A stretch of DNA of 64,000 bases from Planctomycetota bacterium (GTDB lineage: Bacteria > Planctomycetota > UBA8742 > JACQVU01 > JANLHZ01), in the NCBI GenBank assembly GCA_024653775.1, contig JANLHZ010000250.1:595-64594 (forward strand). The letters are read 5' to 3'. The notes below the pieces were generated by a model. It was not told the origin of the DNA, ran no database searches, and was given only the letters and a program-made list of their open reading frames with translations. Position 1 is the first letter of the stretch. Each line of letters starts with the position of its first letter. Positions 17,221 to 61,497 of this stretch are shown here, piece after piece. Position numbers and translations under genes: made by a program.

Positions 17221-17248
17221 AGGATTCAGGATCGAGGATTCAGGATTA
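17221..17248 (+). repeat. 4 x 7-nt AGGATNN tandem repeat
   Basis: AGGATTC AGGATCG AGGATTC AGGATTA lies immediately after the flagellin terminator. Confidence 0.5.
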
Positions 17249-26133: not shown

Positions 26134-26268
26134 AGATTTCAGCCACGCGCCCGATAGGGCGCCAGGATTATCGAGGTCGAGATTTCAGGCTTCAGAACGG
26201 TTCGTGTTCACTGGGGTTCCCTCGCCATCCAGGAGTCGCGGCGCGTTCATTCGTAATTCGTAATTGAA

Positions 26269-29196
26269 CTACGGCACTGTCACCGAGAGTTCCGTCGTGT
26301 TCGAATCCTCGTTGCCCGCTGCATCGACTGCGCGAACCGCGTAGTAGTGAACGACGTTTCCGCCTGTCGTGAGGTTAGTGTCGGTGAAAGTGAGCGTCCC
26401 GTTCGTCACTGTGGCGTAGGGCGTCGAGTAATTCATCGACGGCATCACGAAGTACATTACCCGTGGGTCGTTTGTGTACCTGTAAATGTTGTAGGTGATC
26501 CCAGTCGCGGCTGTGACGTTATCGCTCGCCGCGCTCCAGGTGAGCTGGACGCCGTTCGCTCCGGTCGTGACTGTCGTTAGAGTCGCGGACGAGAGGCCGT
26601 TAAAGCTCGGCGGAATCGTATCCGCAGCGTTCGCGCCGACGCTGAAAGGCGTTGTCGCGTTCGACGCGGGCTGATAGCCGACAAGCCACGCGCTCGCGCT
26701 GTAAGTCCCGTTCGATCCCGCCGAGTAGGTCGAAGTGAAAGTCTGCGTCTGGAACGCGGCGACGGTGAAATTCGTAAACGCCTGCGTGAAGAACATCGTC
26801 GAGCTCATCAGCCAGACCTGCACGCCGTTTGCGTTCGTGACCGCGAAATCGTACTGATGGCCGCTCGAGAAGTTGTACGTCACCGCGGCGTTCGTTCCGT
26901 TCGTGATAGTGTATTCGAGCGTGATCGTCGCGCCGGAGCTAAACGTGCTCTGGACCGCGCCAGCGGAGTCCTTCAGAACGAGCGAGTACGTAACTCCCGT
27001 GCTGCTTCCCGCAGAGACCGTGAACGGATACGCGGGAATCGTCCCGACCGTTGTGGTCGAAGTCCCGTTGTGCGGGACGCTTCCGTGGCCTTCGTAGCTG
27101 CCCGCGGGGAGCGCCGCGCCACTGTTGTCGACAACGTTCCACTGGGTGCTGAACGTGTGCGTCGCGCCTGCTGCGATGGTGAGCGTGGTCGTCGCCTGCG
27201 TGAACGATTTTCCATTCGACCAGTGCCAGAAAAGCTGGATCGGCATTCCAGACCCCGGTGGCGGAGTGGGGGACGTCACGTTGAAGTCGTACTGCTGACC
27301 GGTGGCGAAACTGAGCGTAACGCTCGAACTCCCGGTGTTCGTCAGAACCATCTGCCAGGTATAGCTGCTACCAGCGCTGACGGTTGTTACCGCGGTGCCT
27401 GTGTTGTCGAGCAGGGTCAGAGAGCCGGTGATCTGCGCGTTCGTGCCGCCGCCGGAGGAGACGAGGGTGAACGTCGGCGACGTGAAAGCCGGGATCTGCG
27501 TAGGCGCGCAGTTTCCGAGTATGCTTCCGGACGCGGTGTACGTCCCCGCCGCTTGCGTGCTCGCCGGGAACCACGCGCCCTGGTACGTGAGGCTCTGACC
27601 GGGCGCCATCGTCTCCGGAGGAGCGACGGGAGCGGGCGCGCCCGGCGGCGGCGCCGCGCAGCTCGGAAGCGGCGAAAGCCAGCTAAACGTTCCGTTCGAG
27701 TCGACGATGCTCCAGGTGGATCGCTGGTAGCAGCCGCCGGTGTACGTTACCGTCTGATTCTGCGAGGTGCCGTTGAAAAGGGTGATTCTGAAATGCACGG
27801 AGTTTCCGACGGTGAACGTGCTGGTCGGATTTCCGTTCGCGTCCTCGGTGATCATGGTCGCGGTCAGCGCGCCGCCCCCGGTGTTTCCGCTTGTAATCGC
27901 GAGCGTTACGGGCGCGAACGTCCCGAATGCGTCGGGAGCGCTCGTCCCCGTGATCGTTCCCGTAACCGTGTAAGTTCCCGCGGGGAGAGCGTTTCCGCTG
28001 TTATCGGTGAGGCTCCAGTTGACCGTGGGATTCAGAGTCTGCCCCGGATTTACGCTCGTCGTAACGAAAGCCTGAGTGAAGAATATTCCCGCGGCGGTGC
28101 TCCAGCGGTAGAGTTCGTTTCCGTTCGCGTCGGACGCCGTGAATTCGTAGGTCTGCGAGGACGGATACGTCACGGTCTGGATCTTTCCCGTGCCGTTCGT
28201 CGCGGTGAGGCGGAGCTTCACGGACGAATTCTGCGGAACCGTCGAAACCGCGACTCCGTTCGAATCCGTGACGGCGAAAGAGGTGGTCCAGCCGTTGTTC
28301 GTCGGGGGAGTGGCGGACGAGTTATCGACGTGCATCATCGCCGTGTAGCCTGCGACGCTGTTCGTGGTGCCGTCGTTGCAGGCGATGCTGATGACGTAAT
28401 CCGAGGAGTTCTGCCCCGGCTCATCGATGTGGCTCTCCCAGGTGATCCAGTAGGTTCCAGCGCTGAGGCCCGTTGTCTGGCCCGTAACGGTTGCGTTTCT
28501 GAAACTCGAACCGGCGCTTCCTCCGCGGTACTGCACCGAGATGGTGAGCGCGTCCGGGTCCGGATCGGTGAGGATGAAGTTGATCGCGATATTCCCGGAG
28601 AGCTGTCCTGAAGGAGTGTTCACCGCGACGGACGTCGGCGTGTTGTTCGAAGCGCTGACGACCTGGAAGAAACTGAAATGCAGCGCCTGACCCGTGATCG
28701 TGTTCGCGCCGGTGTTGCGGTTCTTTATGCTGAGGAACGTGAAGTTCGATAGCGTTCCCGACCACGTCACGATCTGGAGTTTCGATTCGTCCGTGACTCC
28801 CGCCGCTAAGAGCTGCGCGTCCGTGTAGTGCAGCGCCACGTCGACCGGCTGGACGAAGTTCACTCCGGACGGCCCAAGCTCGACCGGCGTGCTTACTCCG
28901 GAGTAGCCGGAGGGAAGCGCCGCCTTCGGAGAGGTCGTCGCGTCCGCGATCGTGAAGTTCGTATTCTGCACCACCGCGGCGGTGGGAACGGTTATCGCCG
29001 TGCCCGCAAGCGGCGAGGCCGCATCGGTAACCTGCACCGTCCCGCCCGTGGGGCCGATGCTCGAAGACTGCACGACGGTGCTTCCGTTCTGAGTGGAATC
29101 GCCTGCAACAAGCGCCGGGCCGGACGAGGCTCCGCAGCCGATAAGCCACGCCGTGGCGAAGGCGAACGACATAAGTTTCAAGTTACGGTATTTCAT
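26269..29196 (-). CDS. large lipoprotein with multiple BsuPI-like (proteinase-inhibitor fold) domains and a C-terminal FN3 domain
   Basis: Lipobox LIGC. Repeated pattern N.T...VT..F.SGQ.YDF.V....G...W.WS....FTQA. FN3-like end (LTWSAASDN...YNIYR...YYAVRAVDAAGNE). The start at 29196 has a GAGGA RBS. Confidence 0.85.
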   Translation of the reverse strand: MKYRNLKLMSFAFATAWLIGCGASSGPALVAGDSTQNGSTVVQSSSIGPTGGTVQVTDAASPLAGTAITVPTAAVVQNTNFTIADATTSPKAALPSGYSGVSTPVELGPSGVNFVQPVDVALHYTDAQLLAAGVTDESKLQIVTWSGTLSNFTFLSIKNRNTGANTITGQALHFSFFQVVSASNNTPTSVAVNTPSGQLSGNIAINFILTDPDPDALTISVQYRGGSAGSSFRNATVTGQTTGLSAGTYWITWESHIDEPGQNSSDYVISIACNDGTTNSVAGYTAMMHVDNSSATPPTNNGWTTSFAVTDSNGVAVSTVPQNSSVKLRLTATNGTGKIQTVTYPSSQTYEFTASDANGNELYRWSTAAGIFFTQAFVTTSVNPGQTLNPTVNWSLTDNSGNALPAGTYTVTGTITGTSAPDAFGTFAPVTLAITSGNTGGGALTATMITEDANGNPTSTFTVGNSVHFRITLFNGTSQNQTVTYTGGCYQRSTWSIVDSNGTFSWLSPLPSCAAPPPGAPAPVAPPETMAPGQSLTYQGAWFPASTQAAGTYTASGSILGNCAPTQIPAFTSPTFTLVSSGGGTNAQITGSLTLLDNTGTAVTTVSAGSSYTWQMVLTNTGSSSVTLSFATGQQYDFNVTSPTPPPGSGMPIQLFWHWSNGKSFTQATTTLTIAAGATHTFSTQWNVVDNSGAALPAGSYEGHGSVPHNGTSTTTVGTIPAYPFTVSAGSSTGVTYSLVLKDSAGAVQSTFSSGATITLEYTITNGTNAAVTYNFSSGHQYDFAVTNANGVQVWLMSSTMFFTQAFTNFTVAAFQTQTFTSTYSAGSNGTYSASAWLVGYQPASNATTPFSVGANAADTIPPSFNGLSSATLTTVTTGANGVQLTWSAASDNVTAATGITYNIYRYTNDPRVMYFVMPSMNYSTPYATVTNGTLTFTDTNLTTGGNVVHYYAVRAVDAAGNEDSNTTELSVTVP

Positions 29197-29427
29197 TGCA
29201 TCCTCACGATATGAAAAATTGTTCGAGTCCAAGATATAGCTTCTCCGAGCAATTCAAAAGCAAAAATGAAACCAATCGCTCTAAAAACAATCGGCGTTTC
29301 TCGTCAGGAACACCGTTCCCGGACGGTAACGCTGGTTATTGACATAAAGTCGAGAAACGCGAAACTCCGGGGAACCGCGAATGAATATCGAAGGTGATAA
29401 CCTTGTTGCCGCATGAAAGGACAATCG

Positions 29428-30446: not shown

Positions 30447-30536
30447 TGTTTCGCTCCCTCGTTCCGCTGGCTCGTTTCGCCCTCACCCGCCCATCGGGCA
30501 CCCTCCCCGGAGGGAGAGGGGAAAGCTCCCTACTCC

Positions 30537-31472
30537 CTACCTGTGAAGCGTGCCCGTGTTGATGACGGGCTGCGCCTCGGTTTCGCCGCAGAGGACCACG
30601 AGCAGGTTCGAGACCATCGCGGCTTTCGCCTCCGGGTCGAAATCGATGACTTTCTTCTCTGAAAGCTGAGTCAGCGCCATATCGACCATGGTTACCGCGC
30701 CGTGGACGATCTTCTTCCTCGCGGCGATGATCGCCTCGGCCTGCTGTCTGCGGAGCATTGCGCTCGCGATTTCCTGCGCGTACGCGAGATGGTTCAGCCG
30801 GACCTCCTCGACCTCCACACCGGCCTTCGAAAGCCTCTCCTGGACCTCCTTCTGCAGCGCCTCGTTGACCGCGGAACTGTCCGCGCGAAGCGTGATCACG
30901 GTCTCGTCGTCCTCCTCCATATGATCGTATGGATACTGGGTCGCGATGTTCCTGAGCGCCGACTCGCTCTGGACTTTCACGAAGTTCTGGTAGTCGTCGA
31001 CGTCGAAAAGCGCCCGCGCGGTGTCGACGACCTTCCAGACGACGACCGCGCTGATGTCCACGGGGTTTCCGCGCTTGTCGTTGACCTTCAGTCGTTCGCC
31101 GTCGAAGTTGCGCGTGCGCAGCGAGATCAGGATTTTCGAATAGAACGGATTCGTCCAGAAGAAGCCGCTTTCGCGGACGGTGCCCTTGTACGCGCCGAAG
31201 AGGAGCAGCACCCGCGCCGCGTTAGGCTGGAGCATGAAATGTCCGCAGAGAAGAATGATCGCGCTTACCACTGCGAGGCCGCCCGCGCCCATTCCCCAGC
31301 CCCAGTTCTCGACGTGGGTTCTGTCGAGCTGGACCGCGCTGTAGATAAAGCAGACGACGCCGCCAATACCGAGCATCAGATTGACGAACAGCATTCCGAA
31401 GCCGTTCTTGACGTTTATGACTTTTTCCTGAGACTGGTGCATGTTTTCCTCCGGTTTGAGAACAGATACCAC
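30537..31472 (-). CDS. SPFH/band-7 domain protein
   Basis: N-terminal TM helices followed by the SPFH pattern (LLLFGAYKGTVRESGFFWTNPF...VDISAVVVWKVVD...ALRNIA). Confidence 0.9.
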   Translation of the reverse strand: MVSVLKPEENMHQSQEKVINVKNGFGMLFVNLMLGIGGVVCFIYSAVQLDRTHVENWGWGMGAGGLAVVSAIILLCGHFMLQPNAARVLLLFGAYKGTVRESGFFWTNPFYSKILISLRTRNFDGERLKVNDKRGNPVDISAVVVWKVVDTARALFDVDDYQNFVKVQSESALRNIATQYPYDHMEEDDETVITLRADSSAVNEALQKEVQERLSKAGVEVEEVRLNHLAYAQEIASAMLRRQQAEAIIAARKKIVHGAVTMVDMALTQLSEKKVIDFDPEAKAAMVSNLLVVLCGETEAQPVINTGTLHR

Positions 31473-36522: not shown

Positions 36523-36637
36523 AAGGAATTAGGAATAGTAGCCCGAAAAACGCAGAAGTCAGAATGCGTCATTGTTGTCGGCGGCTGTGGTGTGTGGTCA
36601 GTCGTTAGTTCATTCCTAATTCGTAATTCCCGCCGGG

Positions 36638-37162
36638 CTAGCTGTCGACTATTTCGAACGTTGCCTCGATCGGAAGTCCCATCCGGACCTTCACGCCGCC
36701 GATGCGGACTTTCGAACCCTTCGACGCGAGGATGTCGTTGATCGCGGCTTTCTTTTCCGAAAGCTCGTTCACGTACCACGCGAGAAGATCGTCCGAAAGC
36801 GAACTGAGGTCCGAATGCCTGTGCTCGGACGAGGCAACGAGCTTCGGCGGCGCGAGGTTCGTAGCGGCCACTTTCGGCGCCGGTTCCGGGGTGACGTCCT
36901 TCTCCGCGGCGGCGGGTTTCGAAGGCGCTGGGATATCATCGTCGTCGTCCGCGATTTCGAATTTCTCCTCGTCCTTTTTCTTTGCCACCGGCGCAGGAAT
37001 GTCCTCGATCTCCGGAGCCGCGGGCGCCTCAGGCTCGTCATCCGCGGGCTTTTCGAGCTTGAAAGTGTGGTCGCACTTCGGGCACTTGATTTTCTTGCCG
37101 AAGTTTTCGGAGGAGACCTTCAGTTTCTTGTTGCAGGATGGGCAACGGATTTTTTCTTCCAT
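36638..37162 (-). CDS. zinc-ribbon protein with acidic/Pro-rich linker
   Basis: CPSCNKK...CPKCDH zinc ribbon followed by a D/E/P/A-rich linker. The Met at 37162 is chosen over the listed 37267. Confidence 0.65.
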   Translation of the reverse strand: MEEKIRCPSCNKKLKVSSENFGKKIKCPKCDHTFKLEKPADDEPEAPAAPEIEDIPAPVAKKKDEEKFEIADDDDDIPAPSKPAAAEKDVTPEPAPKVAATNLAPPKLVASSEHRHSDLSSLSDDLLAWYVNELSEKKAAINDILASKGSKVRIGGVKVRMGLPIEATFEIVDS

Positions 37163-37711
37163 GTGTTTCTCTACAATATGGTGGGAGGCTGGGGAATCGA
37201 TAAATGTAACGACTAATTTATGGCTGTGTGCGCGAATGTCAATGATAAAGGCAAACGGTACGGTCACGAGTTGATCGAGTGCGAACGTCCCGTACGCAAG
37301 TAGCGCAGTCGTCCCGGCTGCAAACTGGAAGTGCCGGTCACTTTGGGAGTGCCCGGCACATGGCGATTTACTCCTCCATTTCCCGGAGGAAAAAGGAAAC
37401 CGCGCGTCCTAAATACTGCGCAGGCGAGACGCCTGCGCCCCCGGAATGCGCAGCCAAGATGTACCGGGTGCCTCGTAAGACCTCGTCCGCTCACAAGTTA
37501 GTAGCGGCGACGCCAGGCGTTTATATGTCCTCACGGGCACACCTGCAAACCTCGTAGGAGCGCGAACGCCGTCGTCCGGGCAATTTTCCTTCCGATAGAA
37601 AACATGGGACATTATAATACAAATAATTCGTAGATGGCACGAATAAAGAAGCCCATCGATTTATGCAACAAAGCCGATCTCATCGCGAGATACGCAGGGC
37701 CGTTGGCGCGG

Positions 37712-38707
37712 TCAAAACTTCAGTTCGACAAGTTCAAGGTAGCTAAGAAGAAAAATCGTCCCGAGCACGATTATCGAAATCACGAGTGTGGCAACCACAG
37801 CTACGAGAGCGGCGCGCGTTCGTCCTGCGAGAGCAAGAATCGCGGCTATGAGCAATCCGACCAGCGTAAATATGACGACGCCAAGTATAATGAGACCAAT
37901 AACATCTTGGTCCGGTGGCGGAATTGGAGTTGGCGTAGCGTATTCCAGCCGTGCATTTGCCTTGTCGTTGTTCGGAAAATCGGGCGAACCTTGATCCCAG
38001 ATCGCTCCAAATCCGAATGACTGACCAGGAAGAATTTGTGCGCCTGAAAAACGTACCGAGCCCCAGGACGTTTCTGCTATCGGGAAAGGTCCGCCGTAAA
38101 CGCTACCCGGGTCTAGTATCGCTCCCCCCGGCACGAAAAGCGTTACTGCTTCAACTATCCGGTCGGTCTGATTAACGAACAGCGTTTCCAAGCTGAAACC
38201 ACCGGACGGAATAGACAACTCGTAATTTACCTGATTCGAGTCAGTCAAGTTAATTGCCGAAAGCAAAATCCTTCTATTAATTGTTGCGGAAAGCTCCAGT
38301 GTATAGTCGCCAGCAGGCACCATTATATCAAAATCAAGTACTAAATGAAACGTCTTGCCATTTTCTATTTTTATATTATTCGCGAGGACCACTTGAACCG
38401 ATGGGGCGGTGGCGCCAACCGCTGAGGATGTAAGCCCGTCACCGTCGGCATCCTGAAAAAAGCCATTGGTGATGTTGACAACTTGCTGTGGCGGCACTAC
38501 CTGCGGGTCATAGTCGATTGTCGCTGTCACGTCCGTAATGTCGGACCCGGTCGCGTTGCTCAGTAAAACGTCCACTCCCATGCCGCCACCGGGCAGGTTC
38601 ATTCGAACTCCGCCGCGGGGAAGCGGGGTCTGCGCACTTGCGATTTGTCCGGTTCCAAAGACTAGTACCGCAAAAGATAATCCAAAGATTAACGCTTTCT
38701 TTTTCAT
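37712..38707 (-). CDS. secreted protein with C-terminal TM anchor helices (unknown function)
   Basis: Signal peptide MKKKALIFGLSFAVLVFGTGQIASA and two or three C-terminal TM helices. The ATG overlaps the upstream TGA (ATGA). Confidence 0.7.
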   Translation of the reverse strand: MKKKALIFGLSFAVLVFGTGQIASAQTPLPRGGVRMNLPGGGMGVDVLLSNATGSDITDVTATIDYDPQVVPPQQVVNITNGFFQDADGDGLTSSAVGATAPSVQVVLANNIKIENGKTFHLVLDFDIMVPAGDYTLELSATINRRILLSAINLTDSNQVNYELSIPSGGFSLETLFVNQTDRIVEAVTLFVPGGAILDPGSVYGGPFPIAETSWGSVRFSGAQILPGQSFGFGAIWDQGSPDFPNNDKANARLEYATPTPIPPPDQDVIGLIILGVVIFTLVGLLIAAILALAGRTRAALVAVVATLVISIIVLGTIFLLSYLELVELKF

Positions 38708-39096
38708 TTCCGATCCCCGTAAAAAGTAGAAATTCGTTGAAGACGGAGAGCAAAAATAACACACACACACACACACATACAAGTAAATTTTGAAATAAAG
38801 CCGTATCCGAGCGGGATTTCGTAACCGTGTACGGGGTTAATAAGTCGGACGTCGCTTCCTTGAAATCCGCCGAGCGTTCCCCCGCGATGCGCGTTCACGC
38901 CTTCGCCATCGAACCTGAAGTACACCGGCGAATTCGCGGACGCGACGCTCACCGAACTTTCCTGCGCCTGCGCGCTGCCGCCCGCCTTCGGAAGCGGGGA
39001 CGAAATTCCCGAACTTTCGCACGCTGCGATCCCCGCCGTGGCGAGCGCAATCAGAGCCATTGTCATCCATTTCCTTCTCATTGTCTTTCCTTTCAA
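38704..39096 (-). CDS. small lipoprotein whose 3-prime end reads through a (GT)9 tract
   Basis: Lipobox GIAAC. Tail ...KFTCMCVCVCVIFALRLQRISTFYGDRK. The stop overlaps the next start codon. Confidence 0.6.
   Translation of the reverse strand: MKGKTMRRKWMTMALIALATAGIAACESSGISSPLPKAGGSAQAQESSVSVASANSPVYFRFDGEGVNAHRGGTLGGFQGSDVRLINPVHGYEIPLGYGFISKFTCMCVCVCVIFALRLQRISTFYGDRK
38759..38776. repeat. (AC)9 dinucleotide microsatellite
   Basis: Eighteen nt of perfect AC repeat, which is (GT)9 on the coding strand. Confidence 0.9.
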
Positions 39097-39115: not shown

Positions 39116-41137
39116 TTAGAATTCGTATGAAAGTCCGCCGTAGACCTCCCGCGGCGATGACGGGCGCAGGTCGGTCGCTACCTTTGGATCGCGGGTCAGA
39201 TTCGCGATGTTTTCCGCGCCTAAAAAAAGCTCGAATCCCTTGGCGATTTCGAACGACGCGCGGAAATCGACTATGGCATAACCCCTGCTCCGCGACTGTT
39301 CCGACGAATCGACGAACGCGCTGCTTTTCGCGCGCGCCGCGCTCGTCAGTTCGATACCCGCGCCCGGTATCCGATACGTCACGCGCGCGGTCCCTTTATG
39401 CGCCGGGCGCGCGGCGAGAGCGTTTCCGGTGGAGCGGTTCTTCGCGATGAGATAATCGTAGGAGAGCGAAAAGGTCAGCTCCGGTATCGGTTCGAAGGTG
39501 GCTTGAAACTCCGCGCCTTCGGTGTACAGACTTTCGATGTTCTGGTACGAGAAAATCTGCAAACCCGACGCCGCGGACTCAGCGGGGTCGAGCTGGCTAT
39601 CGATCAAATCCGAGAGATTGTTTCGATAGAAGTTCACCGACAGCGCGATCTCATCTTGCGGCTCGAACTCGAAACCGACGTTTACGCCTAGCGTTCGCTC
39701 CGGATCGAGATTCGCGTTCCCGCGGACCCGGTAGCCGAGGAAGCTGTGGTCGAAATCGAAATAACGCTCCTTCAGATCTGGCGATCGAAAACCCGTCGCA
39801 ACCGACGCGCGCATCCTGAAATTCGAATATGGACTGAAGAGTGCGCTTACGCTCTCCGTGACGTGAAGTCCGAAGGCCGTATCGTGTTCCATCCGCGCGC
39901 CAACCGAGGTTTTGAAGTCGTCCGAGAATTCGATTTCGTCGTGCATGAACACCGCCCAGAGAGCGAAGCCGCGCCCTGGGATTTCGCGGGCCTTCGTTAG
40001 CGCGCCGACGACGCTCGTTTTGAGCACATCCTGCGAAAGCGTTTCGCGACGCCACTCGCCGCCGGCGGTAACGGTGTGAGTGCAGCCAGCAAGTTCGAAG
40101 CCCTGATCGACCTGCAATTCCGCGGCTCGGATGCCCGCGATCGAGTTGCGCTCGTCGTTCGTCGGCGCGCCGCGAAGAGCCTTTGCGGTGTCGCGCGAAA
40201 ACGAACTCGAATAGACCCGGGCGCGCAGCCGCGTGTCCTCCGCGAGATCGAAATCGCCGGAAAACGAGCCGTCGATTCGCCGGGTGTCCTTGGGCGTATC
40301 GAAAAGAAACGTCGTCCCGAGGTTAGTCTGCGACGCGATGCCTTTCGACGACTCCTCGAACCATCCGCCCTCGATTTCGACGCGCGCGTTATCCGACGGC
40401 GTCCACGCGAAGCCCGCGCTACCGTTCCGCTGATATATCTCGTCGCCGTTCGTGTCGGGGTCGCTCCGGTCGAGATCGAACTTGTCGCGATGAAAATATC
40501 CCGCGCTCGCGCTATACTCGAAAACGCCTTCAAGCCCAGAGACCCGCGCCGCGCCTCGATACGCTTCGTTTTCCCGGTAGTCCGCCTCCACGCGGCCTTC
40601 GATTTCATTCCGCGGCCTGCGGGTGATTATGTTGACTACTCCGCCGAGCGCGTCGCTTCCGTAGAGCACCGACGACGGACCGCGGACGATTTCGATCCGT
40701 TCGACAGAATAAAGAGGGATCTCCGCGAGATTCGTCACGCCCGCGCGATCTCCTATGATGCGCATTCCGTCTACCAGGATCAGCACCCGCGACGCGTCGA
40801 TTCCCTGGATCGACACTCCCGTCGGCGATCCGACCGAACTGAACTCTTCGGCGGAGACATCCATCCCCGCAGTTTCCTCGATGACTTCGCCTATGGTATA
40901 CGCGCCGCTCTGATCGATGCGTTCGCGGTCAACAACCTGCACCGCCGCGGGCGATTCGCGTATTGCCGATTCCGTGCGCGTCGCGGTGACGACGGTATCC
41001 GGCAGTTCGTGAGATTCCCGCGGCCATGCAACTTCGGCGGATGATATTTCCGACGATAAAAGCGCGATAAAAAACGCAATGCCGGTTATCGGATTTGGAT
41101 CGCGCTTTTTATTCGAACGGGTACTGCGGGAAAACAT
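39116..41137 (-). CDS. TonB-dependent outer-membrane receptor
   Basis: TonB box/plug (DTVVTATRTE..., IEIVRGPSSVLYGSDALGGVVNIITRRP) and a terminal aromatic residue (GGLSYEF). Confidence 0.9.
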   Translation of the reverse strand: MFSRSTRSNKKRDPNPITGIAFFIALLSSEISSAEVAWPRESHELPDTVVTATRTESAIRESPAAVQVVDRERIDQSGAYTIGEVIEETAGMDVSAEEFSSVGSPTGVSIQGIDASRVLILVDGMRIIGDRAGVTNLAEIPLYSVERIEIVRGPSSVLYGSDALGGVVNIITRRPRNEIEGRVEADYRENEAYRGAARVSGLEGVFEYSASAGYFHRDKFDLDRSDPDTNGDEIYQRNGSAGFAWTPSDNARVEIEGGWFEESSKGIASQTNLGTTFLFDTPKDTRRIDGSFSGDFDLAEDTRLRARVYSSSFSRDTAKALRGAPTNDERNSIAGIRAAELQVDQGFELAGCTHTVTAGGEWRRETLSQDVLKTSVVGALTKAREIPGRGFALWAVFMHDEIEFSDDFKTSVGARMEHDTAFGLHVTESVSALFSPYSNFRMRASVATGFRSPDLKERYFDFDHSFLGYRVRGNANLDPERTLGVNVGFEFEPQDEIALSVNFYRNNLSDLIDSQLDPAESAASGLQIFSYQNIESLYTEGAEFQATFEPIPELTFSLSYDYLIAKNRSTGNALAARPAHKGTARVTYRIPGAGIELTSAARAKSSAFVDSSEQSRSRGYAIVDFRASFEIAKGFELFLGAENIANLTRDPKVATDLRPSSPREVYGGLSYEF

Positions 41138-43928: not shown

Positions 43929-43957
43929 GCCGTCAAACGAGACGTTTGACGGCTTTT
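43929..43957 (+). terminator. orphan plus-strand intrinsic terminator
   Basis: GCCGTCAAACG-AGA-CGTTTGACGGC followed by TTTT. No plus-strand ORF ends here. Confidence 0.65.
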
Positions 43958-44000
43958 GCGGACGATGACGTCCGCGGTCCCGGGTGCCTACGATAGTTTC

Positions 44001-44627
44001 TTAGTCCTCGAATTCGCAGACGTCGCTGTGCAGAACGACGTGCTGGGCGCCGTCCGACCGGATCAGCCGCGTTTCGATTATGAAATGCTCGCGGAACTTA
44101 AGCTCCGGACCTTCAGGCGAGAACGCAAGGGCGTAACACCGGGTGGAGACTACAAGCGCGCAGTTCTGTCCGTTTTCCCTCTCGACCTCGTTTTTCGCGA
44201 GTCCGGGAATACCTTCGACCGCGGACTCTATTTTCGACTCGATCGCGCGAACGAGCGCTTCGATCCGAGACTTTCTGCGAGATTCAAGCTCGAACTTGAC
44301 GACCTCGGATCGCGCCTGCTCAGAGTCGATTTCGTGTACCAGAGGCTGCGCGAGGGCGACCGTGATCCGCCCGATTTTTCTATCGCGGACCAGGGTTACA
44401 ATCGCGTTCCGGAGATCGCCTTCGATGAATTCCGTCACTTCCGCCGGAAGCTCCGGCTCCACGTTTTGCCGTGGGGACGTTGGCGCTTCCGAGGCCATCG
44501 GATTCCGCTCGGCGACCACCTCGATCCGCGGCGGCAGTGTCGCGGGTTCGTTCGTTACAGCGCAGGCGGAAAGCCTCAGCCAGAAAAAAAAGAAAGCCAA
44601 AGTCACTATTCCGCGCTTTTGAAGCAA
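44001..44627 (-). CDS. lipoprotein (unknown function)
   Basis: Signal peptide with lipobox LSAC. TTG start (or GTG six codons downstream). Confidence 0.7.
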   Translation of the reverse strand: MLQKRGIVTLAFFFFWLRLSACAVTNEPATLPPRIEVVAERNPMASEAPTSPRQNVEPELPAEVTEFIEGDLRNAIVTLVRDRKIGRITVALAQPLVHEIDSEQARSEVVKFELESRRKSRIEALVRAIESKIESAVEGIPGLAKNEVERENGQNCALVVSTRCYALAFSPEGPELKFREHFIIETRLIRSDGAQHVVLHSDVCEFED

Positions 44628-44640
44628 ATTTCCGATCCCC

Positions 44641-44808
44641 TACTCCCTACTCCCTACTCCCTGTTCCCTACTCCCTGTTCCCTGCTCCCTACTCCCTTCT
44701 CCCTACTCCCTGCTCCCTTCTCCCTACTCCCTGCTCCCTACTCCCTGCTCCCTACTCCCTTCTCCCTTCTCCCTACTCCCTTCTCCCTACTCCCTTCTCC
44801 CTACTCCC
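44641..44808. repeat. 24 x 7-bp tandem repeat TNYTCCC (GGGARNA on the coding strand)
   Basis: Counted units are TACTCCC, TGTTCCC, TGCTCCC and TTCTCCC. The array fills the spacer between the stop at 44812 and the start at 44627. Confidence 0.95.
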
Positions 44809-44811
44809 TTC

Positions 44812-46317
44812 TTATTTGCCACCGTCGACGTAAGTCCCGCCTGACATTTCAGCGAGCCCCTGCAGAAGAATCTTGTCGTGGTCGGCGCCGATGCCCACGG
44901 TGTTGACGATCAGATGGCGGGAGAGGTTGAAATCGTAGAACGCGTTCAGATGCTCTTCCGCGGTGGCGTACTTGCTCAGCATCGGGACGCCGTCGGTGAG
45001 GAAGTAGATCGTGTCCGGGCTGTTCTGATAGTGGTAGGGATGGTCGATGTTCGCGCGTACCTCCTGGACGTCCGTGGTCCGCGCGGCTTCGACGAGCGCG
45101 TCCCAAATGTTCGTCGCGCCCATCGGCCCGAGCTTTTTCATGTAGTCGATCGCTTCCTGGCGGTTCGCGGGAGTCGCGAAAACGAGCTTGTCTTTCCAGC
45201 GCGAAACTCCGCTCGAATACACGACGAGATTGAACCGCGTTCTCTCCGGAAGGAACCACGCGGCGCGGGTGAATTCCGCGACCGCGAGATCGAACTTGCT
45301 GAAAATCCTCGCCGGCTCTATCGGCGGCGGGCCGGTGACGTCGGGACGGAGCGGGTCCGCTGTGAATTGCCCGCGGAATCTGTCGCGAACGCTCGTGTCC
45401 ACAGGATCGGACATACTCCCGGAAATGTCGATTACGAAACAGATGCGATCGCTCGAAATCTTCATTCCGTAGTACGTCGGCGGCTGGGGCTGTGCGTAGT
45501 CGCCACCGCCGGGGACGAACGCGTTCCCCGCGGCGCGGTTTCGAAGGACGCTGCGCCACCAGCTTTCCCACGCGTCGGGGTCGGGACCGAGATTTCCGCT
45601 GGTGATCCGCTTCAGCGCGTCCACGAGAATTTCGCTCACGAGTTTGCTGCTAGATTTCCGCAGCGCTGAGCAGAGCTGGAATACGTGCTCCTCCTTCGCG
45701 GTTTTCGATAGCGCCCGCGCGCAGCCGTGCTGAAGCGCCCACATATCGTGATCGATCAGCTCGAAGAGTTTGTCTACGTAGAAGTCGTCTTCGGAAAATG
45801 CGACCGCGTCGACCGCCGCGATGAGGAGCTGATGGTCCTCGGAATCGAGGAACTTCGTCAGAGTCTCGCGGACCTTGTCGCTGCCTTTGATATGCCCGAT
45901 CGCGAGAAGAAGCTGCGCCCCGAGTTCGTACGTCAGGCCGCGGCGCGAAAGGTACTCGCAGAGGTCCTCTATAGATTCCTGAAGAGTCGTCTCGCCGAGC
46001 GCGGATACGCAGTCTCTCCGAACTTTGTAGCTCTTGTCACGGGCGAGAATGTCGAGGAGCAGGTTGGTTGCTTCCGCCTTCTCGATTCCAGAGAGCATTC
46101 TCACAGCGTCGATTCGGAGCTGTTCGAGCCGCGCGTATTCGACGCTGTACTGCGGAGTCCCCGTGGGCGCGAGTTCCACGGACCCCGCCTCGTACATCTG
46201 GGCGACCTGCCTTCGAAGTTGCTGCCATTCCCTGCGGTCCATTTCTTCCGCGAGCGCAATGGGCGCGAAGTTCGCGAGTCCAATGGCTATGAACAAAATA
46301 ATTCTGAGGTTTGGCAT
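44812..46317 (-). CDS. HEAT-repeat / von Willebrand factor A domain protein
   Basis: Signal peptide, HEAT-like repeats (VRRDCVSALGE), and the VWA MIDAS motif (ICFVIDISGSMSD). Confidence 0.85.
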   Translation of the reverse strand: MPNLRIILFIAIGLANFAPIALAEEMDRREWQQLRRQVAQMYEAGSVELAPTGTPQYSVEYARLEQLRIDAVRMLSGIEKAEATNLLLDILARDKSYKVRRDCVSALGETTLQESIEDLCEYLSRRGLTYELGAQLLLAIGHIKGSDKVRETLTKFLDSEDHQLLIAAVDAVAFSEDDFYVDKLFELIDHDMWALQHGCARALSKTAKEEHVFQLCSALRKSSSKLVSEILVDALKRITSGNLGPDPDAWESWWRSVLRNRAAGNAFVPGGGDYAQPQPPTYYGMKISSDRICFVIDISGSMSDPVDTSVRDRFRGQFTADPLRPDVTGPPPIEPARIFSKFDLAVAEFTRAAWFLPERTRFNLVVYSSGVSRWKDKLVFATPANRQEAIDYMKKLGPMGATNIWDALVEAARTTDVQEVRANIDHPYHYQNSPDTIYFLTDGVPMLSKYATAEEHLNAFYDFNLSRHLIVNTVGIGADHDKILLQGLAEMSGGTYVDGGK

Positions 46318-59100: not shown

Positions 59101-61371
59101 TCAACGTTTGAAATGGTGCTGTATGAACTCAGCGGTCTGACTCGCAGCAAGCTCAACAGTAGAAGGACCTGTGCGGATATAGAACCGCTCTACTTTTTCG
59201 TCCTTCACGTAAACCGGCGTCGGCGATTTATCGCACTTTATCACCATAACTCTACAGTCATCCTTGTCTTCAAATCGAGGGTGCAGAACCGTCATTGGCT
59301 GACCACCCAACATTCGCGATTTCACGATATTGACGAGATGAAGGCTCATCTTGTCTTCCGTTCCAAAACCGTCAACATCAATTCCGACAGACGTGCCGTC
59401 GTCCGACACCCCGACAACGAGGGTTCCGCCATTTGTGTTAAGAAAAGCGGCAAGCGTCTTCAGAACGGATAACTCCATCCGCGGGTCTGGCTGCCCCGTG
59501 TGCAGATTCATTCTAAGGGTGGACTTGAACTCGATTGCGTCCGATTCGCCAATTTTTAGCAACTCAGCGAGGCCGAGTTCGGTTGTTTTTTCTTCACTCG
59601 GAACGTCAAATCCTGTGAGTTTCTTGTAACCATCCTCGATGACCTTCGCCATAAGCTCGCGACGAGCCACCAAGAATTCCTTATATTCCATGTTCTCCCA
59701 ATTTTCGGGGAGAGCGTGCAAACGGCACATCGATTCAAGCTGGGCTTTTGAAAACCCTTCTTTTATTTTAGGCAAATAGTCCGCTGGCGCCTGGTCGGAT
59801 ATTTTCAAGTTGTCGCTCCACTCCACAAGCGCGATGTCCGCGATTTGATTTGTGTCGCGGATCGACGTGAAACCACGAGATTTCAGGTAGTTCAATGGAA
59901 ACAGGTGATGCTTTTCAACCGCCGACTTATTGGCGTTTATCGACGGATCGAGCAGGTCGGACAGCCTTGATTTCGAAAAAAGAGCGGTCGCGTCGAGAAG
60001 CACAAGCGAAGCGTGATACGCGTATAGCGAAGGACTCTGGGAAGAGGAAGTCGCAAGATCGCTCGGCAGGGTGACGCTCCAAAAGTCGTTCGTCAACCTG
60101 ATCTCGCAAAGCTGAATGAGCAATTCAACGAATCTCTCCTTCGAATTCACATCTCGAAGCCGTGCAAGATCGGATTCCAGCACGGATTCCGGCGAATTCG
60201 TGTACCGACCAGTAATTGCAGCCATGAAAAACCAACGAGCGATAATCGGTCGAAGTTCGCTATCCGCAATCTTGAATTCTGTTCTTCCAATCAAATAAAG
60301 AAGATAAGAGAACAGCAAATTGTTCCTTGAACTGATCATGCCGGCGCTTCGAAATCCGGCCAGCCTGACACACTTCAGGAAATCATGCCAGTATTGGCGA
60401 TTGAGCGTCCTGCTCTGAGCATCCTTTAAGAGCGCGAATTGATGCTCTCTCATCTCGTCGCTGAATTTTTCTGTTTGCAAGTCCTTGCCGCGCAGAATCG
60501 AATAGATGTATTTGAGCCTCGCGCGCTTGAATGCCAAACCAACTGCAACTTTAAGCAATTGATCCGGTGATGGTTCGATAAAGTAATTGAAGGACGACGC
60601 AGTTCCTTTCGAAGGGGTTCGAGCTTCACGGCAGAATTCCTCGAGATCGGTTCGCCCCTCGTCCCAAAACACCGACATCAGAGTCAGAATAAAATCGCTC
60701 TGCTTGAGCGGCGTTCCCTTGCTGTTGATCCTGACGAAGACATCCGCGACAGCTTCTTCCTCTCCCTCAGCGATCCCAGGAGCGAGTTCTAGAGCAGTAA
60801 ACGGAAAACCTGTCAGTCCCTTCAGCATTTCGATAGAACTCTCGATCTTCCTTTCTTCGATTTCGGAAACTTCCCTCGATTCTTTCAACTTCGAAGTGTA
60901 ATCGCGTATAACCTGAGAAAGTCTCGTTTTCTCGTTCCACAATTTCGAAATGCTTGGAAGGTATGAACTGTCGCGCCCGATAGCGGCGTCGTAGACTTCG
61001 AATTTTTCTTCAAGTGGGTTGAAAGCAATCTGTATTTTTTCCTTTTTAAAATTTGATCGCCAAACCTCGATGCCTTTTAGCACAGCGTACAAGGAGGTCA
61101 GTCTTTGTTGGCCGTCCACTATCAACAAGCGCGGCGTCTTTTGCTTATTTTCGACACCGATTTGTTTTTGTGCGGCATTCAAACCGCTTTGCCAGAATAG
61201 AAAATAACCTACAGGATAACCTTTGTACATGGAATCGAACAGGTCACGCACTTTAGCGTTTTTCCAGACAAACGGACGCTGAATATCGGGTAGTCCAATC
61301 TCGCCGAGGCTGATGTATTTCACCAGCGTTCCGAGGTCGTAATCTACCTTGGTAAATACTGTCTTGCTCAT
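59101..61371 (-). CDS. GmrSD-type (DUF262 + DUF1524) type IV restriction enzyme fused to a C-terminal AlbA_2/Schlafen-like domain
   Basis: DUF262 motifs (IQRPFVW, DGQQRLTSL), DUF1524/HNH-like (VEKHHLFP...VEWSDN), and a C-terminal ESDAIEFKSTL...LNTNGGTLVVGVSDDG. GGAG RBS at 61371. Visibly AT-richer. Confidence 0.9.
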   Translation of the reverse strand: MSKTVFTKVDYDLGTLVKYISLGEIGLPDIQRPFVWKNAKVRDLFDSMYKGYPVGYFLFWQSGLNAAQKQIGVENKQKTPRLLIVDGQQRLTSLYAVLKGIEVWRSNFKKEKIQIAFNPLEEKFEVYDAAIGRDSSYLPSISKLWNEKTRLSQVIRDYTSKLKESREVSEIEERKIESSIEMLKGLTGFPFTALELAPGIAEGEEEAVADVFVRINSKGTPLKQSDFILTLMSVFWDEGRTDLEEFCREARTPSKGTASSFNYFIEPSPDQLLKVAVGLAFKRARLKYIYSILRGKDLQTEKFSDEMREHQFALLKDAQSRTLNRQYWHDFLKCVRLAGFRSAGMISSRNNLLFSYLLYLIGRTEFKIADSELRPIIARWFFMAAITGRYTNSPESVLESDLARLRDVNSKERFVELLIQLCEIRLTNDFWSVTLPSDLATSSSQSPSLYAYHASLVLLDATALFSKSRLSDLLDPSINANKSAVEKHHLFPLNYLKSRGFTSIRDTNQIADIALVEWSDNLKISDQAPADYLPKIKEGFSKAQLESMCRLHALPENWENMEYKEFLVARRELMAKVIEDGYKKLTGFDVPSEEKTTELGLAELLKIGESDAIEFKSTLRMNLHTGQPDPRMELSVLKTLAAFLNTNGGTLVVGVSDDGTSVGIDVDGFGTEDKMSLHLVNIVKSRMLGGQPMTVLHPRFEDKDDCRVMVIKCDKSPTPVYVKDEKVERFYIRTGPSTVELAASQTAEFIQHHFKR

Positions 61372-61399
61372 AAAATACTCCGTGATTTCCCACTCCGCT

Positions 61400-61497
61400 C
61401 GTGGCATCGTCGTCCCGCCGATGAACCACGGGCAGGATGCCCTTGCCACACGCAAATGATAATCCCGCCACTCGCGCTCGCAAAGAGCAACTTTTTT
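61400..61497. repeat. ~98-bp direct repeat, copy C
   Basis: See 58987-59085. It lies between the protease gene stop and the GmrSD start. Confidence 0.7.

What the first reader, a model, noticed from the sequence alone, without database searches (positions are those of the whole stretch)
44641..44808. 24-unit heptamer array fills an intercistronic spacer: 24 GGG tracts and GGGAG motifs in the mRNA sense
Twenty-four perfect-register units of TNYTCCC (TACTCCC, TGTTCCC, TGCTCCC, TTCTCCC) start 3 nt after the stop of the HEAT/VWA gene (44812) and end 14 nt before the TTG start of the lipoprotein gene (44627). On the coding (minus) strand this reads (GGGARNA)24. That gives G3 tracts separated by 4-nt loops, which fits the canonical G-quadruplex motif many times over. 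Most units also contain a Shine-Dalgarno-like GGGAG. A two-unit remnant occurs at 30526-30540 beside the SPFH gene stop. Heptamer arrays of this kind are known as STRR repeats in cyanobacteria, but this unit is different. Copy-number change or G4 formation could tune coupling between the two genes.
Basis: partly seen in the sequence, partly recalled or inferred. Interest (0 to 1): 0.65.

Follow-up and report, generated by a model that had tools for sequence, protein, structure and literature searches.

The report
G-rich heptamer repeat between two genes
This is a real 24-unit (GGGAGNA) tandem repeat lying between two same-strand genes; it is a long example of a known class of G-quadruplex-prone 7-base repeats that sit just after stop codons in many bacteria, and the role of that class is still unknown.

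Summary
Window 44641-44808 holds 24 in-register heptamers with no indels. On the gene strand they read GGGAGTA x12, GGGAGAA x6, GGGAGCA x4 and GGGAACA x2. The array starts 3 nt after the TAA of the HEAT/VWA gene and ends 13 nt before the first TTG of a lipoprotein-like ORFan.

It is not a new kind of element. Rehm et al. 2015 (PMC4692102) described G-rich heptameric repeats of 2-26 units in Xanthomonas and Nostoc. [quoted passage not shown] One is a 26-unit array between pecE and pecF.

The GGGAGNA unit itself is widespread. Capped scans found arrays in at least 120 genome contigs and at least 120 metagenome contigs. In both sets the 5' end of the G strand abuts a sense stop codon (median 8-9 nt).

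Best reading: a slippage-grown repeat in the usual slot for its class. It probably puts rG4 or SD-like decoys in the leader of the downstream gene. No reads, transcripts or orthologous loci were available, so function and copy-number variation are untested. I rate it a new member of a known kind, of modest interest.

The parts
44641..44808 (-). 24-unit heptamer array. On the gene strand it reads (GGGAGTA)12, (GGGAGAA)6, (GGGAGCA)4, (GGGAACA)2. Unit order 5'->3' is T A T A T A A T C T C T A C T A T C c T c T T T (letters T, A, C = the sixth base of units GGGAGTA, GGGAGAA, GGGAGCA; c = GGGAACA).
   Evidence: Positions 1-4 and 7 are invariant in all 24 units; variation is confined to positions 5 and 6. 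There is no ATG/GTG/TTG on either strand. The G strand has stops in all three frames (5/3/3) and the C strand has none.
44628..44640 (-). Two decayed units (GGGGATC GGAAAT) between the array and the first TTG. They carry the 25th G tract (44637-44640). Together with base 44641 (the last A of the array) they form an SD-like AGGGGA (44636-44641), which ends 8 nt before the TTG.
   Evidence: Similar decayed 3' ends occur in L143, L179 and L210.
44809..44814 (-). Stop codon TAA (44812-44814) of the HEAT/VWA gene plus the 3-nt spacer GAA before the first GGG.
44812..46317 (-). Upstream gene: 501-aa HEAT-repeat + VWA protein. The C-terminal VWA domain is complete, so the array has not truncated the gene.
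   Evidence: VWA_3 covers residues 356-497 against profile positions 31-154 of 155; codon log-likelihood ratio (LLR) of 0.42 per codon.
44001..44627 (-). Downstream gene: lipoprotein-like ORFan of 208 aa (MLQKRGIVTLAFFFFWLRLSAC...). Alternative starts are GTG at 44604-44606 and TTG at 44598-44600.
   Evidence: signal peptide and lipobox read directly from the sequence. GC at codon positions 1/2/3 is 0.65/0.41/0.70, like the window's genes, and this frame has the best LLR of the six; the only hits are the protein itself (199 aa, starting at codon 10) and one weak match.
30526..30540 (-). Two-unit copy GTAGGGAGTAGGGAG. Its TAG is the stop codon of the SPFH gene (30537-31472). A C-rich inverted complement follows, and a hairpin is predicted.
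   Evidence: The fold z-score of 0.65 is not significant.

Best explanation
The array is a slippage-generated, G-rich heptameric simple-sequence repeat of the class described in Xanthomonas and Nostoc. It has a sister unit, GGGAGNA, and sits in the usual slot for the class, immediately 3' of a sense stop codon.

Shown:
- It is real in the assembly and in perfect register. It varies only at the two positions that would form the G4 loop.
- Its variant map shows growth in two-unit (14-nt) steps.
- It has inflated what would otherwise be a spacer of about 20 nt to 184 nt, without truncating the upstream protein.

Inferred:
- The two genes are co-transcribed, so the G strand is in the mRNA.
- There it is either an unstructured purine tract carrying 22 SD-like GGGAG motifs, or up to six three-tetrad RNA G-quadruplexes.
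- The last G tract doubles as the SD of the downstream TTG start. G4 folding and decoy binding of 30S subunits would therefore compete with initiation. This would make translation of the lipoprotein-like gene independent of the upstream gene and sensitive to unit number.

I think the array exists mainly for mutational reasons. Its effect on expression is probably a modest by-product rather than a designed switch.
For: Anatomy.

Growth by dimer slippage:
- Adjacent units are identical in only 3 of 23 cases (permutation p for a count at least this high is 0.998).
- Units two apart are identical in 11 of 22 cases (p 0.04).
- There are blocks (TA)3, (TC)2 and (cT)2.
- The longest perfect 7-periodic run is 22 nt, against 47 nt for a 14-nt period.

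Class precedent (PMC4692102):
- Arrays of 2-26 units, 89-93% of them intergenic.
- Mean distance of 28 nt to the 5' ORF against 160 nt to the 3' ORF.
- A 26-unit GGGGATT array lies between pecE and pecF.
- G4 shown by CD (T1/2 of 50.4 C for (GGGAATC)3GGG).
- Length varies between Xcc and Xac.

My own replication for this unit:
- Genome loci: median stop-to-array distance 8 nt, 33 of 62 within 10 nt. The other three configurations have medians of 80-149 nt.
- Metagenome loci: median 9 nt, 28 of 53 within 10 nt, against 75-123 nt.
- All 10 upstream ORFs tested are real Pfam genes.
- The same unit mix is seen elsewhere: GTA 474, GAA 257, GCA 215.
- Seven other arrays fill a stop-to-start spacer in the same way.

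Other support: in-silico G4; SD usage in this organism; no promoter-like or terminator-like site in the spacer; upstream VWA domain intact.
Against: - There are no reads, RNA data or orthologous loci for this organism. Co-transcription, copy-number variation and any effect on expression are therefore all inferred.
- The consensus promoter and terminator scan is weak evidence in an unknown lineage.
- Invariance of GGGA..A across 24 units could reflect selection for G tracts, meaning function, rather than recent expansion.
- Anchoring at stop codons across phyla is hard to explain by slippage alone, because slippage adds units inside an array and does not move its border.
- Published data disagree on the direction of an rG4 effect. 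Rehm et al. cite repression when the G4 is at the RBS. Lee et al. 2024 report up to 12-fold enhancement when it lies upstream of the RBS.
Confidence: 0.6

Rival explanations
1. Adaptive translational element. The array is selected as an rG4 and SD-rich leader. It would either load or fence ribosomes toward the weak TTG start, or sequester the SD in a quadruplex. Either way it would set or switch expression of the lipoprotein-like gene.
For: - G tracts and the flanking A are invariant in all 24 units, and all variation falls at loop positions.
- The 25th G tract is the SD-like site 8 nt before the TTG.
- The organism uses GGAG SDs.
- The array RNA has no Watson-Crick structure (MFE 0.0) but reaches -50.2 kcal/mol as G4.
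- A 5'UTR rG4 enhances bacterial translation in a size-dependent way (PMC11087576).
- rG4s regulate genes in E. coli and P. aeruginosa (PMC6974567).
Against: - Across other genomes the 3' end of such arrays is usually far from the next start (median 75-149 nt), and half the arrays face a convergent gene. Supplying a leader is therefore not the general role of the class.
- Rehm et al. found no regulatory role and no bias in gene class.
- The true start codon is uncertain.
Confidence: 0.2
2. 3'-end element of the upstream gene. G-rich arrays placed a few nucleotides after the stop codon would act after termination. Possible roles are a transcript-end or processing site, a block to exonucleases, or a G-rich, C-poor stretch that keeps Rho off the untranslated spacer.
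For: - Anchoring at stop codons across phyla, with median distances of 8-9 nt, replicated in two independent sets and resting on real genes.
- In Xac, transcripts start or stop at G4-capable repeats more often than at control repeats.
- All five period-7 repeats in this window lie just 3' of genes.
- The sense RNA of the array has 94 G and 6 C.
Against: - The next gene starts only 13-40 nt after the array, and no T-run or hairpin follows it.
- Cyanobacteria, which carry many such arrays, lack Rho (my own knowledge).
- The flagellin gene in this window has an ordinary hairpin terminator, and its heptamer repeat lies after that terminator.
Confidence: 0.15
3. Contingency locus. Frequent gain and loss of units would switch or grade expression of a surface lipoprotein within a population, as with the 7-bp repeats upstream of the Haemophilus influenzae hmw genes (my own knowledge).
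For: - A long repeat lies directly upstream of a lipoprotein-like ORFan, a typical class of variable surface gene.
- Repeat length differs between close Xanthomonas relatives.
Against: - The array is interrupted. The longest perfect 7-nt periodic run is 22 nt, and neighbouring units are mostly different. This lowers slippage rates.
- Unit number changes neither the reading frame nor any detected promoter spacing.
- Rehm et al. found no association with surface or adaptation genes.
- No population data are available.
Confidence: 0.1
4. Platform for an RNA-binding protein. The 24 ANGGA motifs (AGGGA) would titrate a CsrA/RsmA-like regulator, or bind S1 or a cold-shock protein, as proposed for TAACTGA heptamer repeats in Beggiatoaceae.
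For: - Every unit contains A-G-GGA, visible directly in the sequence.
- A flagellin gene, a common CsrA target, is in the window.
- MacGregor 2015 proposes S1, Csp or Csr binding for another heptamer repeat (PMC4679880).
Against: - No csrA or fliW homologue is in the window.
- The motifs are not presented in hairpin loops (MFE 0.0).
- There is no Rfam match.
- There is no separate promoter or terminator.
Confidence: 0.05
5. Assembly artefact: a collapsed, expanded or chimeric repeat.
For: - Read support could not be checked.
- 37 of 138 metagenomic arrays of this type lie at contig ends, so such repeats do break assemblies.
Against: - The array is internal to a 74-kb contig.
- Intact genes flank it on both sides.
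- Its unit order is non-periodic and its longest exact internal repeat is only 37 nt.
Confidence: 0.03

Closest known systems
G-rich heptameric G4-forming SSRs of Xanthomonas (GGGAATC / GGGANTN) and Nostoc PCC 7120 (GGGGA(C/T)T); Rehm et al. 2015, PLoS One, PMC4692102
   Same: - Head-to-tail heptamers with a G3-4 tract and 3-4-nt loops.
- Intergenic, mostly between same-direction genes.
[quoted passage not shown]
- Sizes of 2-26 units, including a 26-unit array inside an operon (pecE-pecF).
- Heterogeneous units.
- Some copies are paired with an inverted C-rich copy, as at 30526 here.
- Function unknown.
   Different: - The unit here is GGGAGNA. No unit is GGGAATC or GGGGAYT, and only the 12 GGGAGTA units fit GGGANTN.
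- Each unit also carries an SD-like GGGAG.
- The host is an unidentified lineage that encodes flagellin and is neither a xanthomonad nor a cyanobacterium.
- Multi-copy status across the genome could not be tested.
Cyanobacterial STRR heptanucleotide repeats (three families first described in Calothrix PCC 7601; cited in PMC4692102 as ref. 39)
   Same: Tandem heptamers in non-coding DNA. The same GGGAGTA/GCA/GAA units do occur as arrays in many cyanobacterial genomes.
   Different: - The unit is not one of the three classical STRR sequences. The exact sequences are from my memory, except CCCCAGT and CCCCAAT, which appear in PMC4692102.
- The window is not cyanobacterial, because it contains a flagellin gene.
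TAACTGA heptamer direct repeats of Beggiatoaceae, cyanobacteria and Bacteroidetes (MacGregor 2015, PMC4679880)
   Same: Intergenic heptamer arrays (up to 43 copies) shared across distant phyla, often close to a start codon, with a proposed post-transcriptional role.
   Different: That unit is AT-rich and not G4-capable. Those repeats are anchored upstream of start codons rather than after stop codons.
Promoter or leader SSRs of contingency loci (for example the 7-bp repeats upstream of H. influenzae hmw1A/hmw2A; my own knowledge)
   Same: A 7-nt repeat upstream of a surface-protein gene, where unit number could grade expression.
   Different: Contingency repeats are perfect, and their variation within populations has been demonstrated. 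This array is interrupted, and no population data exist for it.

Membership tests
G-rich heptameric G4-forming SSRs (Rehm et al. 2015) | Tandem head-to-tail heptamers with an intact G3 (or G4) tract, at least 2 units (at least 4 for G4) | tested here: met
   24 units, all with GGG, no indels.
G-rich heptameric G4-forming SSRs (Rehm et al. 2015) | [quoted passage not shown] | tested here: met
   3 nt after the TAA of the sense HEAT/VWA gene. The same bias holds in 240 other loci.
G-rich heptameric G4-forming SSRs (Rehm et al. 2015) | Unit motif: contains GGGAATC at least once, with heterogeneous units GGGANTN (Xanthomonas), or GGGGA(C/T)T (Nostoc) | tested here: not met
   No unit is GGGAATC or GGGGAYT. 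The 12 GGGAGTA units fit GGGANTN and the other 12 do not. This is a sister unit, not the published motif.
G-rich heptameric G4-forming SSRs (Rehm et al. 2015) | Many dispersed copies per genome | tested here: inconclusive
   Only 64 kb is available. It holds one 24-unit array and one 2-unit copy. That density is similar to the 186 repeats Rehm et al. report in Xcc (genome size of about 5 Mb is my own knowledge). The rest of the genome could not be reached.
G-rich heptameric G4-forming SSRs (Rehm et al. 2015) | K+-dependent G4 formation by the oligonucleotide (CD, melting) | not testable with these tools
   In silico only: G4Hunter 1.38, six rG4s at -50.2 kcal/mol.
Cyanobacterial STRR | Host is a cyanobacterium (classically heterocystous) | tested here: not met
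   The window has a flagellin gene and a TonB-dependent receptor. The best SucD identity is 70%, spread over diverse phyla.
Cyanobacterial STRR | Unit is one of the three classical STRR heptamers | tested here: not met
   The units are GGGAGTA, GGGAGAA, GGGAGCA and GGGAACA. The classical units are recalled from memory apart from CCCCAGT and CCCCAAT.
Phase-variation contingency SSR | Perfect or near-perfect repeat, placed so that unit number changes the reading frame or promoter spacing | tested here: not met
   86% matches; longest perfect 7-periodic run 22 nt. The array lies between a stop and a start, with no promoter-like site.
Phase-variation contingency SSR | Unit number varies within a population | not testable with these tools
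   No run holds the flanks. No related contig was found in the metagenome collection.
CsrA/RsmA-titrating RNA (CsrB/RsmZ type) | Many GGA motifs presented in hairpin loops on a separately transcribed sRNA, with a csrA gene present | tested here: not met
   GGA motifs are present in all 24 units, but there are no hairpins (MFE 0.0), no promoter or terminator, no Rfam hit and no csrA or fliW in the window. The whole genome was not testable.

The most novel reading that the evidence does not exclude
GGGAGNA arrays may be a functional element shared across phyla, in which one unit is both a G-quadruplex tract and a Shine-Dalgarno mimic. Being anchored a few nucleotides after sense stop codons, they would act on the ribosome or the transcript just after termination. 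At this locus that could mean holding or relaying 30S subunits across the spacer to the next start, or forming an rG4 that defines the 3' end. Unit number would set the strength of the effect.
Probability: 0.1. Interest if true: 0.6.

Novelty: new member of a known kind. Interest (0 to 1): 0.3.

Why it matters
The locus is a clean natural test case for an open question: why G-rich heptamer repeats pile up just after stop codons in distant bacterial phyla, and whether they do anything. In this instance the array fills the whole spacer between two cistrons. Its last G tract is the likely ribosome-binding site. Every unit is both a G4 tract and an SD mimic. A small set of reporter constructs could therefore separate three effects: G4 folding, SD decoys and spacer length.

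The anchoring at stop codons was previously shown only for GGGAATC and GGGGAYT in three genomes. Here it replicates for a different unit in two independent collections. That strengthens the case that the position of these arrays is not accidental.

As a single finding, however, it is an additional example and not a new kind of system.

Tried and rejected
- Orthologous loci for comparing copy number: none exist. The HEAT/VWA protein has no relative above 26% identity among 5.8 billion clusters. An exact look-up found nothing. The metagenome protein scan found nothing. The lipoprotein-like ORF is an ORFan.
- Read support and transcription: the two runs returned hold only the heptamer from other organisms at huge depth, with zero depth on the flanks. 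A query with the flank alone found no run.
- Taxonomy: there is no rRNA or tRNA in the window. SucD is at most 70% identical to proteins from many phyla. No locus shares close genes with the window. The lineage stays unresolved.
- Coding repeat: rejected. The + strand ORFs that cross the array (43956-44906 and 44471-44833) have negative codon scores and are antisense to a better-scoring gene. The G strand has stops in all frames.
- Known RNA family: no Rfam match.
- Watson-Crick RNA structure: the fold of the spacer with its flanks is no better than shuffles (z +1.18).
- CsrA sponge: no csrA or fliW in the window.
- Possible homology of L143, whose 3' flank looks similar (GGGGGTCGGAAGTG against GGGGATCGGAAAT): rejected. 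No flanking genes are shared, and the similarity comes from decayed repeat units.
- Shadow-ORF artefact as the cause of the stop-codon anchoring: rejected. All 10 upstream ORFs tested have Pfam domains, and where checked (for example the tRNA synthetase, GroEL, RidA, ETF-QO and Hpt hits) these reach the C-terminus.
- Literature on the exact unit: no paper in the held library names GGGAGTA or TACTCCC as a bacterial repeat.

Full report
**1. The observation.**
Window 44641-44808 holds 24 heptamers in one register with no insertion or deletion. TRF reports 44638-44809, period 7, 24.6 copies, 86% matches and 0% indels. On the minus strand, which is the strand of both flanking genes, the units are GGGAGTA x12, GGGAGAA x6, GGGAGCA x4 and GGGAACA x2. 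Positions 1-4 (GGGA) and 7 (A) never vary; all variation is at positions 5 and 6. The core TCCCTNNTCCC occurs 25 times in the window against 0.33 expected. Of these, 23 are in the array, one is the two-unit copy at 30526, and one is unrelated.

The array begins 3 nt after the TAA (44812-44814) of a 501-aa HEAT + VWA protein whose C-terminal VWA domain is complete. It is followed by two decayed units, GGGGATC GGAAAT, and then by the first TTG (44625-44627) of a 208-aa ORF with a lipoprotein-type signal peptide (MLQKRGIVTLAFFFFWLRLSAC). The gap is 13 nt, not 14. The start is uncertain, because the public gene call for this protein begins at codon 10, which gives a gap of 40 nt. The ORF has gene-like codon statistics but is an ORFan.

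I could not check read support. The only runs returned carry the heptamer from other organisms and nothing from the flanks. The unit order is aperiodic and the longest exact internal repeat is 37 nt, so a collapsed or invented array is unlikely.

**2. Properties of the array.**
- The G strand has no ATG, GTG or TTG and has stops in all three frames. The C strand is open in all frames, but the + strand ORFs that cross it score as non-coding.
- As RNA the array has no Watson-Crick structure at all (MFE 0.0). With the G-quadruplex energy model it folds into six three-layer quadruplexes (-50.2 kcal/mol).
- Its G4Hunter score is 1.38, and it contains 22 of the 25 canonical quadruplex motif starts in the whole 64-kb window.
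- With flanks and without G4, the fold is no better than shuffled sequence (z +1.18).
- SD-like motifs (GGAG, GAGG, AGGA, GGGA, AAGG) precede 18 of 34 genes against a 20% background, and one gene is preceded by GGGAGAA. The 22 GGGAG motifs are therefore credible SD mimics.
- The 25th G tract (44637-44640) lies in an AGGGGA that ends 8 nt before the first TTG, which is the normal SD spacing here.
- No promoter-like or terminator-like site lies in the spacer, no Rfam family matches, and no csrA or fliW is in the window.

**3. How it grew.**
Reading 5'->3' on the G strand, with each unit named by its sixth base (T, A, C; c = GGGAACA), the units run T A T A T A A T C T C T A C T A T C c T c T T T. 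Adjacent units are identical in only 3 of 23 cases, while units two apart are identical in 11 of 22 (permutation p 0.04). The variants are clustered: GAA lies toward the 5' end, GCA in the middle and AACA near the 3' end. The longest perfect run is 22 nt at period 7 but 47 nt at period 14. This is the signature of local duplication in two-unit steps, which points to slipped-strand or unequal exchange. It also means the array is not a perfect, highly mutable microsatellite.

**4. Related sequences elsewhere.**
About 45% were cyanobacterial (Nostoc, Trichormus with 59 units, Dapis with 23, Trichodesmium, Okeania). Many others were Acidobacteriaceae, and the rest included Planctomycetota, Gemmatimonadota, Chloroflexota, Bacteroidota and Hydrogenedentota. 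A scan of metagenome contigs for six or more GGGAGNA units also hit its limit at 120 contigs. The unit counts there were GGGAGTA 474, GGGAGAA 257 and GGGAGCA 215, the same three main units in the same order as in the window. At 24 units the window's array is longer than any of those 138 metagenomic arrays (maximum 17), and among the genome arrays only two reach 23 units or more.

With crude ORF calls, the 5' end of the G strand abuts the stop codon of a same-sense gene:
- Genome set: median 8 nt, 33 of 62 within 10 nt.
- Metagenome set: median 9 nt, 28 of 53 within 10 nt.
- The three other gene-array configurations have medians of 75-149 nt.

All ten upstream ORFs tested are real Pfam genes; the hits checked (for example the tRNA synthetase, GroEL, RidA, ETF-QO and Hpt domains) run to the C-terminus. 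In about a third of the close cases the stop is a TAG supplied by the array itself. The offset is 6 mod 7 in 20 of 41 genome cases and 17 of 35 metagenome cases. Seven other arrays fill a stop-to-start spacer as this one does. No locus is orthologous to the window.

**5. What is already known.**
Rehm et al. 2015 (PMC4692102) described this kind of element in Xanthomonas (GGGAATC, heterogeneous GGGANTN) and Nostoc PCC 7120 (GGGGA(C/T)T):
- Arrays of 2-26 units, 89-93% of them intergenic in the xanthomonads.
- Mostly between aligned ORFs, on average 28 nt from the 5' ORF against 160 nt from the 3' ORF.
- G4 formation shown by CD (T1/2 of 50.4 C for (GGGAATC)3GGG in 100 mM KCl).
- Mostly transcribed.
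- Length varies between close relatives.
- No link to surface or virulence genes, and no function found.

Their longest Nostoc example is a 26-unit array in the spacer between pecE and pecF, a direct precedent for the anatomy here. Other heptamer repeats have been discussed as possible post-transcriptional signals, without proof (PMC4679880; bioRxiv 10.1101/2022.06.06.494920). No paper in the held library names GGGAGTA or TACTCCC as a bacterial repeat unit.

**6. Interpretation.**
I file the array as a new member, with a sister unit, of the known class of G-rich heptameric repeats. Its position, size, heterogeneity and G4 capacity all fit the class. The exact published motif does not fit, and multi-copy status across the genome is untested.

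The most likely account (0.6) is that the array is a product of slippage that persists in a permissive slot. Its consequences would then be by-products. It stretches the intercistronic spacer to 184 nt. It also places rG4-capable, SD-mimicking RNA directly in front of the downstream start, so translation of the lipoprotein-like gene is probably uncoupled from the upstream gene and depends on unit number. The direction of any effect cannot be predicted. G4s at the RBS repress translation (cited), whereas rG4s upstream of the RBS enhanced it up to 12-fold (PMC11087576).

The rivals are:
- an adaptive rG4/SD leader (0.2);
- a 3'-end element of the upstream gene (0.15), which best explains the anchoring at stop codons across phyla but fits this locus poorly, because the next gene starts 13-40 nt later;
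- a contingency locus (0.1);
- a CsrA-type platform (0.05);
- an assembly artefact (0.03).

Anchoring at stop codons remains unexplained by simple slippage. It is the most interesting open point.

**7. Verdict.**
The heptamer array, G4 motif and SD-like motifs are right. The claim of a novel unit or kind is not, and the tuning of coupling is untested. I rate the finding a new member of a known kind, with interest 0.3.

Noticed in passing
window 26245-26265 and 36608-36628 (minus strand): The 21-mer AATTACGAATTA[C/G]GAATGAAC is built of heptamer units (AATTACG / GAATTAC). It occurs twice, differing at one base, 3 nt and 7 nt after the TAG stops of two unrelated genes (26269-29232 and 36638-37267), in sense orientation. 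None is expected by chance. It looks like a second small dispersed element next to stop codons.
   Followed up: partly
window 17221-17247 (+ strand): (AGGATTC) x3.9 lies directly after the hairpin + T-run terminator of the flagellin gene (GACAGGCCCGG...CCGGGCCTGTTTTTTATTT). With this one, all five period-7 repeats in the window lie just 3' of genes.
   Followed up: partly
window 30470-30545 (minus strand): The two-unit GGGAGTA copy that overlaps the SPFH stop is followed by a C-rich inverted complement (CTTTCCCCTCTCCCTCC). A hairpin is predicted, like the paired inverted repeats reported in Xanthomonas. The fold is not better than shuffled sequence (z 0.65).
   Followed up: partly
window 38759-38781: A (GT)11 dinucleotide tract (minus strand TGTATGTGTGTGTGTGTGTGTGT) sits right at the mechanical TTG start (38782) of ORF 37712-38782, downstream of the TonB-dependent receptor gene 39116-41137. 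This is a candidate slippage tract.
   Followed up: no
window 59101-61455 (minus strand): A 784-aa protein has a GmrSD N-terminal domain and a Schlafen/AlbA_2 domain, which is a likely anti-phage defence or restriction gene.
   Followed up: no
runs X1 and X2 (laid on window 44625-44858): Two public runs from other organisms contain TACTCCC-type heptamer repeats at very high word depth (up to about 1.9 million), with no trace of the flanking genes. The same unit is therefore a high-copy repeat in some unrelated organism or sample.
   Followed up: no
genome and metagenome loci L001-L240: In about a third of the arrays near stop codons, the gene's stop is a TAG supplied by the repeat itself (offsets -1, -8, -15, -22, -29), so the last codons of those proteins are encoded by the repeat. 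Among stops that lie before the array, offsets of about 5-7 nt are the commonest.
   Followed up: partly
window as a whole: The lineage is very poorly sampled. The HEAT/VWA protein has no relative above 26% identity, the lipoprotein-like ORF is an ORFan, many large ORFs have no Pfam hit, and SucD is at most 70% identical to anything public.
   Followed up: partly
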